Shown piece after piece: positions 6,722 to 23,788 of a stretch of DNA of 64,000 nucleotides. Below the pieces are notes generated by a model. The model made no database searches, had not been told where the DNA came from, and worked only from the letters and a program-made list of their open reading frames with translations. How positions within the stretch are numbered: position 1 is the stretch's first letter; every line of letters begins with the position of its first letter. The translations under genes and the position numbers were made by a program. The stretch is from an uncultured Candidatus Saccharibacteria bacterium (GTDB lineage: Bacteria; Patescibacteriota; Minisyncoccia; Phycocordibacterales; PCTT01): the NCBI GenBank assembly GCA_964566505.1, contig CAZMIM010000002.1, positions 46,529-110,528 on the forward strand, given 5' to 3'.

Positions 6722-7852
6722 ATGAAAAAGATTCTTTGGTGGATTGCACTCTTGGCACTCGTGCCGATGTTTGCAACCGCCCAGCAGATGGAGTACACCA
6801 GCACGGAAAAATTTCCTGTCGGTGAACACGAAGCTCCTGTAAGCCTCAGGACAGAACTGCGCGACGCTGTGTGCGGAGAAATCCGTGGCGAAGCGCACGT
6901 TATTGTACGAGGACACTACGACAGTCGTGAATACCCACTGGACAACCATGATCAGCAGTTCTTTTTAGGGCTCAGACGTGGTGCTGATGTAGCTCAATAC
7001 ATGGAACGCGTGTGCGCAATGCACAGAAGCAACTTCTCAGTACAGAGCTCATTTGCGCCCGGTGATCCGGACGACCCTCAAGGGAACGAGTCCAGAACAG
7101 TCACAATCATTTGGGGATTCTCAGATACTTCAGACTTCCAAACGGCTCAAGACTCCTACAACATGGACCTGGAGGACTTCTTCAACGAATTCCTCAATCC
7201 TTGGAAGGAGCTTGATCTTGCAAACCAGGCAGAAATGCTTGAGATTATGCGTTCTGTTGATGAGAAAATGATTGCATCGCAACTACAGCTTGCAAACATC
7301 TCTCGTCAAATCGATGAGCTTGCAGCCATGTCATGGAAACTCCCTCGCTGGAGCTTCCAGACCGGCATGCAGTTCTCGAGCAAATTTGGAACTGGCTTCA
7401 CCTTCTCGCTTTGTCGTAACTACTTTGACCAGAACATCGACTTCTGCCTCAAAGCATTTGCGGAAAACGAAAGCCACGAAGCACAAGCACTGCACCGCCC
7501 CTACCCTAATCAAGAAGTTCTTCATTGGGGAAAGTGGTACAGTGCCTCACTCATCATCAGGCCGTACCTGAAGAGCTTGGGCGAAAGTGCTCGAATCTTC
7601 ATGGACCTCGGTATCGGAGTAGCTCACGTGAACTACAATGGACCTCCGGACAAAAGCATCGGATACAACACTACCGGCATCATGCCCTCGATCGGATTTG
7701 GTCTCAAAACCAGATGGCGTTCGTGGGGGCTGGAGTTCGTAGGTACCGAGGAAGTCTGGATGTTCCCACAAGGCGTGGTGCTCCCGTCTTTCGAAGATGG
7801 TGACTACCATGTGAGCCTAGCTGGCTCTTTTGCTCTTTCGTATCATTTCTAG
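6722..7852 (+). CDS. OmpA-like domain protein with a C-terminal OMP-type beta-barrel; anomalously GC-rich
   Basis: The 376-aa ORF has a signal peptide (MKKILWWIALLALVPMFATAQQ) and an OmpA_C-like segment (VIVRGHYDSREYPLDNHDQQFFLGLRRGADVAQYM). Its C-terminal 150 aa are alternating-hydrophobic beta-strand sequence ending in ...SLAGSFALSYHF, a terminal aromatic typical of BamA substrates. The gene's GC looks 10 or more points above its flanks. Confidence 0.6.
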   Translation: MKKILWWIALLALVPMFATAQQMEYTSTEKFPVGEHEAPVSLRTELRDAVCGEIRGEAHVIVRGHYDSREYPLDNHDQQFFLGLRRGADVAQYMERVCAMHRSNFSVQSSFAPGDPDDPQGNESRTVTIIWGFSDTSDFQTAQDSYNMDLEDFFNEFLNPWKELDLANQAEMLEIMRSVDEKMIASQLQLANISRQIDELAAMSWKLPRWSFQTGMQFSSKFGTGFTFSLCRNYFDQNIDFCLKAFAENESHEAQALHRPYPNQEVLHWGKWYSASLIIRPYLKSLGESARIFMDLGIGVAHVNYNGPPDKSIGYNTTGIMPSIGFGLKTRWRSWGLEFVGTEEVWMFPQGVVLPSFEDGDYHVSLAGSFALSYHF

Positions 7853-21012: not shown

Positions 21013-21468
21013 GTGGAAAAGTATAAAAGAAATCCAAATACAAAATGTACAATTTGTGACAAGGAAATCTACAAAAGACCTGGCCAGATCAAACAAAATA
21101 AAGGTAATGTTTTTTGCGGTCAAAAGTGTTACGGAATTTATTGTAGAAAAGAGATTCCTTGTTTGGTTTGTAATAAGCCCATACTAGCTGGTTTAAATAA
21201 AAAAACATGCAGTCGCTCATGCGCAAACAAAAACCGTGCTGGCAACAATTATAAAACCGGTAGAAAGAGAGATAAAGTTAAATCTCAAAAATTTATCAAA
21301 AAGAGGTTATTGGAGGATCGTGGTAAAAAATGTGAGCGTTGTGGTTTTTCAAATCCAAATATTTTACACACCCATCACAAGGACCGTGATAGAAGGAATA
21401 ATAAAATGAGCAATTTAGAACTACTCTGTCCAAACTGCCACGCCATAGAGCACTTACAAAAAATTTAA
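21013..21468 (+). CDS. HNH endonuclease with an N-terminal Cys-rich zinc-ribbon region
   Basis: The C-terminal HNH motif reads CERCG...LHTHHKDRDRRNN...LELLCPNCHAIEH, and several CxxC pairs lie upstream. The gene sits immediately 5' of tRNA-Ser. Confidence 0.7.
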   Translation: MEKYKRNPNTKCTICDKEIYKRPGQIKQNKGNVFCGQKCYGIYCRKEIPCLVCNKPILAGLNKKTCSRSCANKNRAGNNYKTGRKRDKVKSQKFIKKRLLEDRGKKCERCGFSNPNILHTHHKDRDRRNNKMSNLELLCPNCHAIEHLQKI

Positions 21469-21495
21469 ATCGTGATACTATACGCCAGTATACAG

Positions 21496-21580
21496 GGAGA
21501 GGTGCCGGAGTGGTCGAACGGACTTGTCTTGAAAACAAGCGTAGGGCAACCTACCGTGGGTTCGAATCCCACCCTCTCCG
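21496..21580 (+). tRNA. tRNA-Ser (anticodon TGA), long variable arm
   Basis: GGAGAGG...CTTGT-CTTGAAA-ACAAG...V-arm...GGGTTCGAATCCC...CCTCTCC-G. Confidence 0.85.
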
Positions 21581-21596
21581 CACAATATAAAAGGTT

Positions 21597-21621
21597 CCAA
21601 TGTTTTGCATTGGGATTTTTT
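21597..21621 (+). terminator. rho-independent terminator of tRNA-Ser
   Basis: ccaatgttttgcattgg is followed by gattttttg. Confidence 0.55.
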
Positions 21622-21634
21622 GTTTTGTATATAT

Positions 21635-21751
21635 GGGATTCGAACTGGAAGAGGGGTCGGGAGAAACTCTAGTTTCTCCCGTGGAGGAAAGCATTGAAAA
21701 CCGAGAGGTTTTTAAGGAGCGAAGCGACGTGAGATTCCCACCCTCTCCGCA
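21635..21751 (+). repeat. tRNA-linked repeat element, copy C (partner tRNA-Ser)
   Basis: This 117-nt element has distal 15 nt (cccaccctctccgca, 21737-21751) that exactly repeat 21568-21582, the tRNA-Ser 3' end. Its proximal GGGATTCGAAC is the reverse complement of the tRNA-Ser T-loop (TTCGAATCCC). Its core, GGGGTCGGGAGAAACTCTAGTTTCTCCCGTGGAGGA, is shared with copies A and B. Confidence 0.65.
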
Positions 21752-21787
21752 TTAAAGATAAAGTGTCGGAGTAGCCTAGTCTATTTA

Positions 21788-22549
21788 TTATTGATGTAAT
21801 TTTTTTAACTCCACCTCATTCATTCCTAGTTGGGTAATCATATACTTACTTCCATTAAAGTGTAAGTGGGCGTTATCGTGTACTAGTCTATGTAGTGTTC
21901 GTCTAAGATTTTTTTTCATAGATGGCTTGATCCATTTTTCTATCTCTTCATAAGTTGCGCCTAAATCGCCTCGTTCATATAACAACAACAAAATATATTG
22001 GCTAGCTTTAAGATTAGGTTTTAAGATTTTTAAAAACCCATCAAAATTTTGAATTGCCGGAATACGTCTTATCACTAAACTATTAATGATTTTCTGAGCT
22101 TCGTCAGCAGCACATCCATGATATAAACGCACAAATTCAGCAAGAGTCCAATCAATTCCAGAGACGACAATTGTTGCGTCTTGCATACTTGGATCTATGT
22201 CATCAGAGAGATGTGCCGCATCTCTATTATTGCGTATATCATAAATTACTCTTAATGTACGAGGAATATGTAAGCGGATTGAATCAGAATGTAAATGCTT
22301 TGGGGTGTTTGAAAGATTAATTGCCAATTTCTCAACGTCTAATTGTCTTCCCAGCGGCGTAAAACTACCAGTCGTTATTTGTTCTAGTAAACGAAAGGCA
22401 GCTTCACAAAATCGTCCACCCTCCACAGCATTCAATCTCAGACCACCAACTTGAAATTCTTGCTTTGCCTCTATATAGGATTCCAAAAGCTCATCAACTA
22501 ATGAGTGGTCAAAATGAGCGTAAAGGCTGGATTGAATAACGGTAAACAT
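21788..22549 (-). CDS. Abi-like (AbiD/AbiF-type, HEPN-superfamily) protein; putative abortive-infection or toxin RNase
   Basis: The 253-aa ORF carries IYDIRNNRDAAHL, which fits the Rx4-6H HEPN motif in an Abi_2-like context. It is coupled to the upstream 22570-23112 ORF. Confidence 0.4.
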   Translation of the reverse strand: MFTVIQSSLYAHFDHSLVDELLESYIEAKQEFQVGGLRLNAVEGGRFCEAAFRLLEQITTGSFTPLGRQLDVEKLAINLSNTPKHLHSDSIRLHIPRTLRVIYDIRNNRDAAHLSDDIDPSMQDATIVVSGIDWTLAEFVRLYHGCAADEAQKIINSLVIRRIPAIQNFDGFLKILKPNLKASQYILLLLYERGDLGATYEEIEKWIKPSMKKNLRRTLHRLVHDNAHLHFNGSKYMITQLGMNEVELKKLHQ

Positions 22550-22569
22550 AAGCCTGTATTCATTATTTG

Positions 22570-23112
22570 TTACTTGCTAGTTTTCTTTTTTCTTTTAGCC
22601 GAATATTTCTTTCGCTTAACTTTATTCTTTTCTATGGCTTTTTTTACCTCTTCTCGGTCAGGGAGTGCTTCTACCACAGCTTCTCCTAAAACTGACATTT
22701 GTTTATTACCTGCTCCAGCTTTGGCAAAATATCCATCTCTTTCTGCATTTCGAACAAATACGGCAGTGTTTGAGAAATCTGGTTGTGCGGCATCCCGATT
22801 TAGCTTTGTAATATTTTTAGTTTTAAAATGTGGGGTATCAGCATAGTGAGATAGATAATATCCAAGACATGTCACCCTCTCAACCTCAGAAGAAGGCTTT
22901 TTAAGAGACATGAAATCCTTAGGCGTCAAAGGCTGACCATTTTTAGTATTTGGATTATCATTACCAAGCAAATCTGAGCTTGCTTTTAACCCTCCGCCCA
23001 TAATCAACAAGATGACTTCTCGTGCAACTTTCTCTGTAATACTTTTGTCTTTTATTGTTATATCTCCTCCTGATAAATTTAATTTATATAATGGTTGTTT
23101 TTCGTTTTCCAT
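22570..23112 (-). CDS. hypothetical protein with a basic C-terminal tail, the upstream partner of the Abi-like gene
   Basis: The 180-aa ORF has no recognisable family. It sits 20 nt upstream of the HEPN-like gene on the same strand. Confidence 0.4.
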   Translation of the reverse strand: MENEKQPLYKLNLSGGDITIKDKSITEKVAREVILLIMGGGLKASSDLLGNDNPNTKNGQPLTPKDFMSLKKPSSEVERVTCLGYYLSHYADTPHFKTKNITKLNRDAAQPDFSNTAVFVRNAERDGYFAKAGAGNKQMSVLGEAVVEALPDREEVKKAIEKNKVKRKKYSAKRKKKTSK

Positions 23113-23380: not shown

Positions 23381-23788
23381 ATGAAAAGAGGTTTTACGCT
23401 CATAGAACTCCTTGTTGTAATAGCAATTATCGCAGTGCTCACATCTGTTGCACTTGCTTCATTTGAGCAAGCAAAAATAAAAGCACGAGACGCACGAAGA
23501 ATGTCTGATCTTGGTGAAATCGAAAACGCACTCAACCTATATTTCACAGAACACAATCTATTCCCTATTGAACCTTCGGTTGTCACAATCACAGGAGAAG
23601 ATGATTTCTCAACAACCCTCGAAACAGGAGGACACATCAGCGAAACTCCAATAGATCCATTTTCTCCAACATACGACTATACATATGTATCAAACTCTTC
23701 AGGAACGACATATACAATTACATTTTGTCTTGAGGGAACATCTATCGCGAGTTATGCTCAAGGATGTAGTAACACACTCACACCATAA
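23381..23788 (+). CDS. type IV pilin / pseudopilin (prepilin-type N-terminal cleavage/methylation domain)
   Basis: MKRGFTLIELLVVIAIIAVL is the class III signal with G-1/F+1/E+5. Confidence 0.8.
   Translation: MKRGFTLIELLVVIAIIAVLTSVALASFEQAKIKARDARRMSDLGEIENALNLYFTEHNLFPIEPSVVTITGEDDFSTTLETGGHISETPIDPFSPTYDYTYVSNSSGTTYTITFCLEGTSIASYAQGCSNTLTP

What the first reader, a model, noticed from the sequence alone, without database searches (positions are those of the whole stretch)
21013..23112. tRNA-Ser islet: HNH endonuclease, tRNA-Ser, element copy C, then an Abi-like HEPN gene pair
Copy C (21635-21751) ends in cccaccctctccgca, a repeat of the tRNA-Ser 3' end at 21568-21582. A free-standing HNH endonuclease with a Zn-ribbon N-terminus (21013-21468) lies immediately 5' of the tRNA. 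Directly 3' of the element lies a two-gene minus-strand module, 22570-23112 followed by 21788-22549. The second gene carries an Rx4-6H HEPN-type motif (IYDIRNNRDAAHL) in an AbiD/AbiF-like context. The first gene has no recognisable family. This looks like a small defence or addiction islet at a tRNA integration hotspot, and the unknown 180-aa partner could be a novel antitoxin or sensor.
Basis: partly seen in the sequence, partly recalled or inferred. Interest (0 to 1): 0.6.

Follow-up and report, generated by a model that had tools for sequence, protein, structure and literature searches.

The report
HEPN toxin-like gene pair beside tRNA-Ser
Next to a serine tRNA gene in a candidate-phyla-radiation bacterium lies a horizontally spread, unannotated two-gene cassette (a predicted HEPN RNA-cutting toxin plus a DNA-binding partner); the neighbouring HNH gene is an ordinary conserved gene, and the small repeat belongs to a separate, phylum-wide and apparently undescribed tRNA-linked element.

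Summary
They do not form one islet; the stretch has three unrelated layers.

1. The HNH gene and tRNA-Ser(UGA) are a conserved core unit of Patescibacteria. They are adjacent in 8 of 8 genomes examined, and the HNH protein has 857 homologues at about 60-70% identity. It is not a mobile homing endonuclease.

2. Copy C is one of three window copies of an element about 130 nt long. Its core occurs at 120 or more sites in Patescibacteria genomes and is not in Rfam. Each copy has an arm that is the reverse complement of the neighbouring tRNA's T-loop region, and it ends in a direct copy of that tRNA's 3' end. It is not an att scar bracketing the gene pair.

Most likely it is a toxin-antitoxin or abortive-infection-type module.

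The parts
21013..21468 (+). Zn-ribbon + HNH protein (151 aa). A conserved Patescibacteria core-like gene that is always followed by tRNA-Ser(UGA). It is not part of the cassette.
   Evidence: Pfam HNH E 6.7e-5, PHROG HNH 6e-14. 857 homologues at about 60-70% identity. The RuvX-(DUF5652)-HNH-tRNA-Ser(tga) synteny holds in 8/8 genomes.
21496..21581 (+). tRNA-Ser (anticodon UGA). No CCA is encoded; the discriminator G is followed by CA.
   Evidence: ARAGORN; Rfam tRNA 60.4 bits.
21587..21623 (+). Terminator-like hairpin with a T-run between the tRNA and element copy C.
   Evidence: Consensus scan. Copies A and B have analogous hairpins of unrelated sequence.
21634..21751 (+). Element copy C, in order:
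- 5' arm TGGGATTCGAAC, the reverse complement of tRNA-Ser positions 21560-21571 (T-loop and T-stem 3' strand)
- a linker
- the conserved core GGGGTC, hairpin P1, GTGGAGGA and hairpin P3 (model match 21647-21720)
- a 3' direct copy, TCCCACCCTCTCCGCA at 21736-21751, of the tRNA 3' end
   Evidence: I7, D1; 68.1 bits, E 8e-17. Covariation in P1 and P3. Family-wide architecture.
21788..22549 (-). HEPN-wHTH protein (253 aa), the predicted RNase toxin or effector.
- N-terminal HEPN bundle, about residues 1-157, with E49-x3-R53 and R106-N107-x5-H113
- C-terminal winged helix, about residues 160-250
22570..23112 (-). Partner protein (180 aa), the predicted antitoxin or repressor.
- low-confidence N-terminal beta-hairpin and helix
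- linker
- winged helix, residues about 61-160
- Lys/Arg-rich C-terminal helix
23116..23174 (-). Promoter-like site TTGACA-17-TAGACT. A direct repeat TAGACTAAyTTw (23151-23139 and 23128-23116) precedes the partner's ATG and is a possible operator.
   Evidence: Consensus scan (10/12 match); sequence read. The operator role is inference only.
8925..9057 (-). Element copy A, downstream of tRNA-His (9112-9184, -). The 5' arm GGGAATCGAAC is the reverse complement of the tRNA-His T-loop region. The 3' end TCCCGGTGGTCGCCCA is a copy of the tRNA-His 3' end.
   Evidence: 66.1 bits.
14746..14875 (-). Element copy B, downstream of tRNA-Arg(tct) (14930-15002, -). The 5' arm GCCAGGAATCGAAC is the reverse complement of the tRNA-Arg T-loop region. 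The 3' end TCCTGGCGGGGGCGCA is a copy of the tRNA-Arg 3' end.
   Evidence: 58.2 bits.

Best explanation
The 2.1-kb stretch is a composite of three independent layers, not one integrated islet.

1. HNH + tRNA-Ser(UGA) is a conserved, vertically inherited unit of Patescibacteria.

2. Copy C is a member of a Patescibacteria-wide family of structured elements about 130 nt long that sit 3' of tRNA genes. Their two ends are copied from that tRNA: an antisense T-loop arm at the 5' end and a sense T-stem/acceptor strand at the 3' end.

3. The minus-strand pair is a horizontally spread two-gene cassette. It most likely works as a type II-like toxin-antitoxin or abortive-infection module.
- The downstream 253-aa protein is an active HEPN ribonuclease fused to a winged helix.
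- The upstream, faster-evolving 180-aa winged-helix protein binds and masks the HEPN protein and represses the shared promoter.
- Loss or displacement of the partner, for example on phage infection or loss of the cassette, would free the RNase to cut cellular RNA and stop growth.

Shown: the gene pairing, the HEPN fold and motifs, the winged-helix folds, the accessory and horizontal distribution, and the tRNA-proximal bias.

Inferred: RNase activity, toxicity, neutralisation by the partner, autoregulation and the trigger.
For: HEPN identity:
- In a 67-sequence alignment at 25-52% identity, H113 and E49 are invariant and R106 and R109 are at least 90% conserved.
- R106-N107-x5-H113 sits at the end of the helix spanning residues 89-112 and the start of the following loop. 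E49-x3-R53 sits in the helix spanning 43-60. These are the positions and motifs that define catalytic HEPN domains (PMC3710099).

Pairing:
- A partner-profile hit ends between -1 and 36 nt from the HEPN start in 60/70 loci.
- The gap in the window is 20 nt.
- The partner folds as a winged helix.
- A precedent for a winged-helix protein neutralising a HEPN toxin is Retron-Kva2 (bioRxiv 10.64898/2026.07.14.738597).

Accessory and mobile character:
- 1426 homologues and 1109 clusters at 50% identity.
- Host GC ranges from 35 to 72%.
- Flanking genes are unrelated from locus to locus. Neighbours include EcoRI restriction-modification, a TOTE primase-helicase, an integrase and a Y1 transposase.
- Flanking direct repeats of 13 nt or more occur in 3/35 loci, against 1% in shuffles.
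- A convergent tRNA lies within 700 nt downstream in 4/36 loci.
- The pair is absent from L016, L213, L214, L216, L224 and L225, which all keep HNH-tRNA-Ser.

Independence of the layers:
- The element core occurs at 120 or more sites with no HEPN or partner hit in 841 kb of flanks.
- HNH-tRNA-Ser is adjacent in 8/8 genomes.
Against: - No curated profile (Pfam, PADLOC 2.0, NCBIfam, PHROGs) matches either protein at E <= 1. Only a sub-threshold Abi_C match appears, in 4 of 67 family members (best E 0.02).
- The HEPN protein is unusually conserved for a conflict gene, at 57-71% identity across very different hosts.
- About half of the contexts have only housekeeping neighbours.
- The family is absent from phage and IMG/VR collections, and nearly absent from plasmids.
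- No toxicity, RNase or interaction data exist, and no complex was modelled.
- In this window there is no integrase, no significant flanking repeat and no GC deviation (36.1% against 39.6 +/- 3.4%).
Confidence: 0.6

Rival explanations
1. One small defence or addiction islet integrated at a tRNA-Ser hotspot. The HNH endonuclease is a mobile component, and the tRNA 3'-end repeat in copy C is the attachment-site scar of the islet.
For: - A 16-nt exact repeat of the tRNA 3' end lies 169 nt downstream of the original.
- The cassette is accessory and, elsewhere, lies beside tRNA 3' ends more often than expected.
- The segment between HNH and S20/RuvA varies among relatives.
Against: - The repeat brackets only the element (21583-21751). 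The gene pair lies outside it.
- The same element, with repeats specific to the local tRNA, occurs at tRNA-His and tRNA-Arg in this window and at 60 or more other tRNA loci without the pair.
- HNH-tRNA-Ser(UGA) is conserved in 8/8 genomes at 60-70% protein identity.
- There is no integrase next to the pair and no significant direct repeat around it.
Confidence: 0.07
2. The pair is a regulatory or RNA-metabolism module rather than a toxin system. It would consist of two winged-helix DNA- or RNA-binding proteins. The HEPN domain would act as a sensor or dimerisation domain, as in the HEPN-related regulator MtlR, or as a tightly controlled processing RNase.
For: - Sequence conservation of the HEPN-wHTH protein is very high (mean column identity 68%).
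- Many loci have purely housekeeping neighbours.
- The family is absent from phages and nearly absent from plasmids.
- Both proteins carry winged helices.
- Non-catalytic HEPN regulators are known (MtlR row of Table 1 in PMC3710099).
Against: - The catalytic-type R-N-x5-H and E-x3-R motifs are invariant or nearly so across the family, whereas non-catalytic HEPN domains typically lose them.
- The distribution is patchy and horizontal, across hosts of 35-72% GC, and the pair is missing from close synteny relatives.
- Some loci have flanking repeats or defence and mobile neighbours.
Confidence: 0.22
3. The pair works together with the adjacent structured element as a three-part system. This would resemble the type IX retron layout of ncRNA + HEPN + winged-helix protein but lack a reverse transcriptase. 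Alternatively the element could act as a tRNA-mimicking decoy for the RNase.
For: - The element and the pair are adjacent: the element ends 36 nt from the HEPN stop codon.
- Type IX retrons combine an ncRNA, a HEPN toxin and a winged-helix protein.
- The element's ends can form a mimic of the tRNA acceptor/T-arm.
Against: - The two do not co-occur. There is no HEPN or partner hit in 841 kb around 120 element loci.
- The element is restricted to Patescibacteria, whereas most cassette loci are high-GC: 76 of 92 have GC of 50% or more, median 55%. The element was not searched for directly in the cassette loci.
- The element and the pair are convergent, so they are not one transcript.
- No reverse transcriptase gene is nearby.
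Confidence: 0.03

Closest known systems
HEPN-MNT (HepT-MntA) toxin-antitoxin systems
   Same: A two-gene operon in which a small HEPN RNase with an Rx4-6H motif is the toxin. Both are widespread, horizontally mobile and sometimes defence-linked.
   Different: The partner here is a winged-helix protein, not a minimal nucleotidyltransferase, so neutralisation by AMPylation is not expected. The HEPN protein carries its own C-terminal winged helix. There is no match to Pfam HEPN (PF05168) or DUF86 profiles.
Type IX retron effectors (Retron-Kva2 HEPN + WH proteins)
   Same: A HEPN toxin whose toxicity is mitigated by a separately encoded winged-helix protein. That HEPN toxin cleaves rRNA and tRNA, causing growth arrest.
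   Different: No reverse transcriptase or msDNA-forming ncRNA accompanies the pair in any locus examined. Kva2 HEPN lacks the canonical Rx4-6H motif, which this family keeps.
   Same: Membership of the HEPN superfamily and an R...H motif.
   Different: No Abi_2 profile match for the window protein or for 66 family members. Abi_2 proteins are single-gene systems with a different architecture.
AbiJ-type proteins (Pfam Abi_C, PF14355, a C-terminal HEPN domain)
   Same: A DNA-binding domain combined with a HEPN domain in one protein. This is the only curated HEPN family that gives any signal: 4 of 67 members, best E 0.02.
   Different: The signal is below threshold. The domain order is reversed, with HEPN N-terminal here. 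AbiJ has no obligatory winged-helix partner gene.
AbiE (AbiEi winged-helix antitoxin + AbiEii nucleotidyltransferase toxin)
   Same: A bicistronic module with an upstream winged-helix antitoxin or repressor. It behaves both as an abortive-infection and as a toxin-antitoxin system (PMC3985639, listed; details from my own knowledge).
   Different: The toxin is a nucleotidyltransferase, not a HEPN RNase. No profile similarity was detected.
tRNA-targeting integrative elements and guide-type RNAs (att sites of genomic islands, IS110 bridge RNA, TnpB omega RNA, retron a1/a2 stems), as comparators for element copy C
   Same: A duplicated tRNA 3' end, as at attL/attR. RNA segments that match both strands of a target, as in bridge RNA. 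A 3' segment identical to flanking DNA, as in omega RNA. Terminal complementary arms, as in a retron ncRNA.
   Different: The bracketed unit is only about 130 nt and encodes nothing. No recombinase, TnpB, IscB or reverse transcriptase is enriched within 8 kb of 120 copies. No Rfam family matches. The inner boundaries are fixed at the T-loop edges, which none of these systems predicts. All these resemblances are recalled analogies, not tested memberships.

Membership tests
HEPN superfamily (catalytic RNase type) | Four-helix up-down bundle of HEPN topology | tested here: met
HEPN superfamily (catalytic RNase type) | Conserved Rx4-6H motif with a polar residue after the R | tested here: met
   The motif is R106-N107-N-R109-D-A-A-H113. 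In the 67-sequence alignment at 25-52% identity, H113 is invariant and R106 and R109 are at least 90% conserved. A six-residue spacer and N after R are within the definition (PMC3710099).
HEPN superfamily (catalytic RNase type) | [quoted passage not shown] | tested here: met
   In the model, a helix spans residues 89-112, a loop spans 113-121 and the next helix spans 122-144. The local pLDDT is low at residues 110-117.
HEPN superfamily (catalytic RNase type) | Second conserved acidic residue in helix 2, typically Ex3[KR] | tested here: met
   E49 is invariant, and E49-A-A-F-R53 lies in the helix spanning residues 43-60.
HEPN superfamily (catalytic RNase type) | Significant profile match to a curated HEPN family | tested here: not met
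   Pfam, NCBIfam, PADLOC and PHROGs give no hit at E <= 1 for the window protein. Only sub-threshold Abi_C matches appear, in 4/67 members. A PDB sequence profile search finds no HEPN chain.
HEPN superfamily (catalytic RNase type) | Metal-independent RNase activity that depends on the R and H residues | not testable with these tools
   This needs biochemistry.
AbiD/AbiF (Abi_2, PF07751) | Profile match to Abi_2 | tested here: not met
   No Abi_2 hit for the window protein at E <= 1, nor for 67 family members at E <= 0.1.
Type II toxin-antitoxin module | Two small co-oriented genes, closely spaced, with conserved pairing across unrelated genomes | tested here: met
   The gap is 20 nt in the window. 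The partner lies directly upstream in 60/70 loci, with gaps of -1 to 36 nt in 58 of them. Flanking genes are unrelated between loci.
Type II toxin-antitoxin module | Toxicity of one product, neutralised by direct binding of the other | not testable with these tools
   No multimer prediction or experiment was available. The only support is the analogy with Retron-Kva2 HEPN and WH.
Type II toxin-antitoxin module | Autoregulated promoter with operator repeats bound by the antitoxin | tested here: inconclusive
   A promoter-like site, TTGACA-17-TAGACT, and a direct repeat, TAGACTAAyTTw, lie upstream of the partner. The number of promoter-like sites in the region is no higher than in shuffles (8 against 8.7).
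Known anti-phage defence systems (PADLOC-DB 2.0) | Match to any system component model | tested here: not met
   No PADLOC hit for either protein at E <= 1.
tRNA-integrated genomic island | Island bracketed by the tRNA gene and a direct repeat of its 3' end | tested here: not met
   The repeat (21736-21751) lies before the gene pair and closes only the element. Around the pair there is only an 11-nt T-rich repeat, which is not significant.
tRNA-integrated genomic island | Integrase or recombinase gene within the island | tested here: not met
   Between 21582 and 23380 the only credible genes are the two cassette genes.
tRNA-integrated genomic island | Absent from related genomes at the same site | tested here: met
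   L016, L213, L214, L216, L224 and L225 all keep HNH-tRNA-Ser(tga) but lack the pair. These relatives are distant, with 37-70% protein identity.
tRNA-integrated genomic island | Composition deviating from the host | tested here: not met
   The pair has 36.1% GC, against 39.6 +/- 3.4% for 33 window ORFs.
Free-standing (mobile) HNH homing endonuclease | HNH catalytic motif | tested here: met
   Pfam HNH scores above its cut-off, and several PHROG and PADLOC HNH models match.
Free-standing (mobile) HNH homing endonuclease | Sporadic distribution and variable genomic position | tested here: not met
   There are 857 homologues at about 60-70% identity. The position is fixed, next to RuvX and immediately 5' of tRNA-Ser(tga), in 8/8 genomes.
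Any Rfam RNA family (for element copy C) | Covariance-model match | tested here: not met
   Only tRNAs reach the gathering score in the window. Permissive searches of copies A and C give nothing credible over the element core.

The most novel reading that the evidence does not exclude
Copy C and its siblings A and B may belong to an undescribed, Patescibacteria-wide class of structured RNAs or miniature elements about 130 nt long, programmed by the neighbouring tRNA.

Each copy carries a covarying two-hairpin core with invariant GGGGUC and GUGGAGGA joiners. The core is flanked at the 5' end by the reverse complement of the adjacent tRNA's T-loop and T-stem. It is flanked at the 3' end by a sense copy of that tRNA's T-stem/acceptor 3' strand. 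The inner boundaries are fixed exactly at the T-loop edges. This makes each copy either a guide-like RNA or mobile element that targets tRNA genes, or a mimic of the acceptor/T-arm minihelix of its cognate tRNA.

Separately, the HEPN-wHTH/wHTH cassette would be a new family of toxin-antitoxin or defence systems.
Probability: 0.4. Interest if true: 0.8.

Novelty: new variant of a known kind. Interest (0 to 1): 0.5.

Why it matters
- If the cassette is a toxin-antitoxin or abortive-infection module, it adds a large, entirely unannotated family to the HEPN conflict systems. The family has at least 1100 clusters at 50% identity and occurs in hosts from 35% to 72% GC. Its architecture, HEPN fused to a winged helix plus a separate winged-helix partner, is missed by current defence-finding models.
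- It would also be one of the few such modules seen in a Patescibacteria genome, where defence content is thought to be sparse (my own recollection, not checked here).
- The re-reading matters for annotation. An HNH gene next to a tRNA, together with a repeated tRNA 3' end, looked like an integration hotspot. Here these features are a conserved core gene pair and a phylum-wide element linked to tRNA genes.
- That element is probably the more surprising object. It is not in Rfam, and I found nothing on it in the searchable literature. Its tRNA-templated ends pose a clear and testable question about how it arises and what it does.

Tried and rejected
Searches that found nothing useful:
- Profile searches of all three proteins against Pfam, PADLOC, NCBIfam and PHROGs found nothing for the pair.
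- PDB sequence-profile searches with narrow and wide alignments found no HEPN chain.
- Foldseek against the PDB was not significant. The afdb50 library was unavailable.
- tblastn of the HEPN protein gave no match in phages and one weak match in plasmids, on Natronomonas PL131. IMG/VR gave none.
- An exact look-up of the window's own protein to name the source record was not on record. Cluster names gave only 'hypothetical protein' and one Methyloceanibacter entry.
- Rfam searches at the gathering score and at permissive E-values gave no family for the element.
- Four literature searches found nothing on the element. Group I introns in Patescibacteria tRNA genes sit at anticodon-loop position 35/36 and are a different thing.

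Hypotheses tested on the gene pair:
- A conserved third gene upstream of the pair was rejected. Only a second winged-helix paralogue appears, in 9 loci.
- Homology between the two winged helices gave an in-register hhalign alignment that is not significant (probability 0.3%).
- For the 10 loci without a partner-profile hit, the same-sized upstream ORF was not detectably homologous.
- Direct repeats and GC anomaly around the pair in the window were not significant.

Hypotheses tested on the element:
- Looking for a protein enriched near the element (recombinase, TnpB, reverse transcriptase) found only housekeeping neighbours.
- The seven matches to the element pattern in viral contigs are one GC-rich phage sequence, so they are chance matches.
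- Whether the 5' arm tracks the tRNA or the 3' copy where the two differ gave 11 against 6 sites, too few to decide.
- Single-sequence folding of the copies does not stand out from shuffles (z -0.2 to -1.4). The structural evidence rests on covariation instead.


Full report
**Observation check**

- The ORF 21013-21468 (+, 151 aa, GTG start) has an HNH domain at residues 107-147. It matches Pfam PF01844 at E 6.7e-5, above the curated cut-off. It also matches PHROG HNH families down to 6e-14 and a PADLOC homing-endonuclease model at 2.5e-8. Cys-pair motifs lie N-terminal to the domain.
- tRNA-Ser(UGA) lies at 21496-21581.
- The 16-nt 3' end of the tRNA, TCCCACCCTCTCCGCA (21567-21582), is repeated exactly at 21736-21751, which closes 'copy C'.
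- The two minus-strand ORFs, 22570-23112 (180 aa) and 21788-22549 (253 aa), are 20 nt apart. The 253-aa product contains IYDIRNNRDAAHL at residues 102-114.

**The HNH gene is core, not mobile**

- The protein has 857 homologues, the best 120 at about 60-70% identity over the full length. The sources that carry names are Parcubacteria or Patescibacteria.
- I examined seven other genomes: L016, L213, L214, L216, L224, L225 and L215, the last being a duplicate of L214. In every one, a tRNA-Ser(tga) gene starts between -15 and +50 nt from the HNH stop codon on the same strand.
- RuvX, often with a DUF5652 protein or a tRNA_bind protein, lies on the other side. S20, RuvA and a Mur ligase lie a few kilobases away, as in the window.
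- HNH + tRNA-Ser(UGA) is therefore conserved core synteny in this phylum. It says nothing about an integration hotspot.

**Copy C belongs to a phylum-wide element linked to tRNA genes**

Copies in the window:
- Copy A (8925-9057, -) follows tRNA-His and copy B (14746-14873, -) follows tRNA-Arg(UCU), each in the orientation of its tRNA.
- In all three copies, the 3' end is a direct copy of the last 16-17 nt of that particular tRNA, through the discriminator plus CA.
- In all three, the 5' end is the reverse complement of that particular tRNA's T-loop and T-stem 3' strand. The arms are GGGAATCGAAC in A, GCCAGGAATCGAAC in B and TGGGATTCGAAC in C. The A/T difference tracks the tRNA.

Distribution:
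Nearly all are Patescibacteria MAGs.
- In 62 of 123 occurrences ARAGORN finds a tRNA within 250 nt upstream on the same strand, representing 31 different anticodons. Of these, 44 carry a direct copy of the tRNA 3' end of 12 nt or more, and 54 carry an inverted arm of 9 nt or more, up to 25 nt.
- The same layout (X, loop, reverse complement of X, core, X) occurs at some non-tRNA sites such as L023 and L035.
- Some sites scored as 'no tRNA' end in tRNA-like 3' sequences. These may be tRNA genes that the detector missed, for example genes containing introns. This is inference; PMC13011429 reports such introns.

Boundaries:
- The inner boundaries are sharp. The direct repeat starts at tRNA end -15, the T-loop/T-stem junction, as its mode. 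The inverted arm ends at -22, the first T-loop nucleotide, as its mode.
- The outer ends vary.
- The linker to GGGGTC is 5-6 nt, and the median length is 129 nt.

Structure:
- Two hairpins covary. On 49 sequences, 98.7% of cells are paired, against 89.5% in shuffles. Sixty-eight cells changed on both sides, against 17 in shuffles. Both measures collapse when the 3' partners are slid.
- G·U pairs fit only the tRNA-sense strand.

Other tests:
- A covariance model built without copies A and B finds exactly the three window copies, and none after tRNA-Ser in L213, L214 or L216.
- No Rfam family matches.
- No recombinase, TnpB or reverse-transcriptase-like gene is enriched within 8 kb. The neighbours are housekeeping genes such as prfB and ftsEX.
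- The only matches in viral contigs are chance.
- Four literature searches found nothing on it.

The tRNA-end repeat is therefore a built-in feature of this element. It is not the attR of an island that carries the gene pair, which lies outside the repeat.

What the element does is unresolved. Its ends could pair with each other, giving a closing stem with a median of 6 bp and up to 15 bp, which would be a partial mimic of the acceptor/T-arm minihelix. They could instead pair with both strands of the tRNA gene, or with the tRNA itself. I regard it as either a tRNA-templated small RNA or a non-autonomous insertion element that targets the T-arm. No test I could run separates these.

**The 253-aa protein is HEPN + winged helix**

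- No curated profile matches it, and PDB sequence profiles are empty.
- It has 1426 homologues of constant length, 250-262 aa, at 57-71% identity. An exhaustive search finds 1109 clusters at 50% identity with E <= 1e-3, and 192 with E <= 1e-30.
- The AF2 model (pLDDT 84) shows a helical bundle over residues 1-157 and a winged helix over residues 160-250.
- Foldseek is not significant, but the same HEPN entries recur in its list.
- In a 67-sequence alignment at 25-52% identity, E49, H113, D124, W134 and G242 are invariant, and R92, R106, R109, E138 and R141 are at least 90% conserved.
- Anantharaman et al. [quoted passage not shown] All are met here. R106-N107-x5-H113 ends the helix spanning residues 89-112, and E49-x3-R53 lies in the helix spanning 43-60.
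- The only curated-family signal is a sub-threshold Abi_C match in 4 of 67 members. Abi_2 (AbiD/F) never appears.

**The 180-aa partner**

- Twelve direct homologues share a conserved C-terminal two-thirds and a variable N-terminus.
- A profile of the partner matches an ORF ending -1 to 36 nt before the HEPN gene in 58 of 70 loci with enough upstream sequence. In 2 further loci the hit ends 67 or 189 nt before it. The remaining 10 loci have an undetectable ORF of the same size in that position.

**The cassette is accessory and horizontally spread**

- Host loci range from 35% to 72% GC, and flanking genes differ from locus to locus.
- Some neighbours are conflict or mobility genes: an EcoRI restriction-modification system with a primase (L001), a Y1 transposase (L006), a TOTE primase-helicase (L156), an integrase (L175), and a DUF4145-like protein with a nucleoside deoxyribosyltransferase-like protein (L207). 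About half of the loci have only housekeeping neighbours.
- Three of 35 loci have flanking direct repeats of 13 nt or more, tightly bracketing the two genes, against 1% in shuffles.
- Four of 36 distinct loci with at least 700 nt of downstream sequence have a convergent tRNA gene 50-673 nt after the HEPN stop: Gln-CUG, Ser-GGA, Gln-UUG and Ser-UGA. About 0.6 would be expected. This is the same arrangement as in the window.
- The six relatives that keep HNH-tRNA-Ser lack the pair.
- In this window the pair shows no GC anomaly, no integrase and no significant flanking repeat.

**Mechanism proposed**

I propose a toxin-antitoxin or abortive-infection-type module.

- The HEPN domain, presumably a dimer with a composite R/H site as in other HEPN RNases (established knowledge, not tested here), is the effector.
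- The upstream winged-helix protein is the labile neutraliser and repressor.
- A promoter-like TTGACA-17-TAGACT site, with a TAGACTAAyTTw direct repeat, lies just upstream of the partner and could be the operator (inference).
- The closest functional precedent is Retron-Kva2, in which a winged-helix protein alone mitigates the toxicity of a HEPN toxin. Here, however, no reverse transcriptase or ncRNA accompanies the pair.

The main rival is a non-toxic regulatory or RNA-processing role. It is favoured by the unusually strong conservation and by the absence from phages and near-absence from plasmids. It is disfavoured by retention of the catalytic motifs and by the patchy, horizontal distribution.

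**Verdict**

The HEPN pair is a real accessory cassette with a tRNA-proximal bias. It is not AbiD/F-like, and neither the HNH gene nor the repeat is part of it.
- Novelty: a new variant of a known kind, namely a HEPN toxin-antitoxin or Abi-like module with an unannotated family and architecture.
- The element, and the HNH-tRNA-Ser(UGA) linkage, deserve their own follow-up.

Noticed in passing
window 8925-9057 (-), 14746-14875 (-), 21634-21751 (+); loci L012-L131: A Patescibacteria-wide structured element about 130 nt long lies 3' of tRNA genes (31 anticodons) and at some other gene ends. The layout is: the reverse complement of the upstream tRNA's T-loop region, then the core (GGGGUC, hairpin P1, GUGGAGGA, an optional variable hairpin, then the AACCGWGGGUU hairpin P3), then a direct copy of the tRNA 3' end. 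It is not in Rfam, no associated protein was found, and no literature was found.
   Followed up: partly
window 21013-21581; L016, L213, L214, L216, L224, L225: The 151-aa Zn-ribbon HNH gene is immediately followed by tRNA-Ser(UGA) in 8 of 8 Patescibacteria genomes examined. In L225 the tRNA even overlaps the HNH stop by 15 nt. RuvX lies on the other side. This suggests co-transcription or a functional link between this HNH protein and that tRNA.
   Followed up: partly
L013 about 2290-2560; L116 about 7100-7330: In some genomes the duplication after the element extends beyond the tRNA end to include the tRNA's terminator. In L013 the spacer and the start of the element are repeated in tandem. 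This hints at a duplicative origin of the flanks.
   Followed up: no
L016 4280-4560 (- strand): In the relative with the same HNH-tRNA-Ser(UGA)-element synteny, the copy of the tRNA 3' end right after the core is only 8 nt. A second, imperfect copy (aatctcatcccatccgcc) lies about 180 nt further on. The right boundary of the element is therefore not uniform.
   Followed up: no
window 9112-9184, 14930-15002, 21496-21581: These tRNA genes do not encode CCA, yet each has 'CA' directly after the discriminator base. The element's direct repeat ends exactly after this CA in all three window copies.
   Followed up: no
window 10331-10918 and 10977-11043 (inside ORF 9809-11788, -): Tandem repeats of 294 nt at 80% identity, with a third partial unit, lie inside a 659-aa ORF. 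This looks like a repeat-domain surface protein.
   Followed up: no
window 9765-9801 and 11857-11893: Two nearly identical 37-nt GC-rich hairpins (AACAAAnCCCCGTCTGTGTGTCTACACAGACGGGGTT) flank the 659-aa gene. They are terminator-like repeats.
   Followed up: no
L146 918-1314 and 8 other cassette loci: Nine cassette loci carry an additional upstream gene of about 130 aa. It shows the same N-terminal beta-hairpin plus C-terminal winged-helix design as the partner and is a possible paralogous second regulator.
   Followed up: partly
L002 5305-5324 and 6773-6792; L201; L172: Direct repeats of 20 nt (18/20 identical), 45 nt and 13 nt tightly bracket the two-gene cassette in three unrelated genomes. 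In L002 the downstream copy lies 20 nt from the 3' end of a convergent tRNA-Gln. This suggests the cassette inserts as a discrete unit of about 1.45 kb.
   Followed up: partly
window 23381-23788 (+); L016 1478-4273: Type IV pilin-like genes border the variable segment in both the window and L016, where PilB, PilC and a pilin are present. Their order and orientation differ, so synteny breaks right after the element.
   Followed up: no
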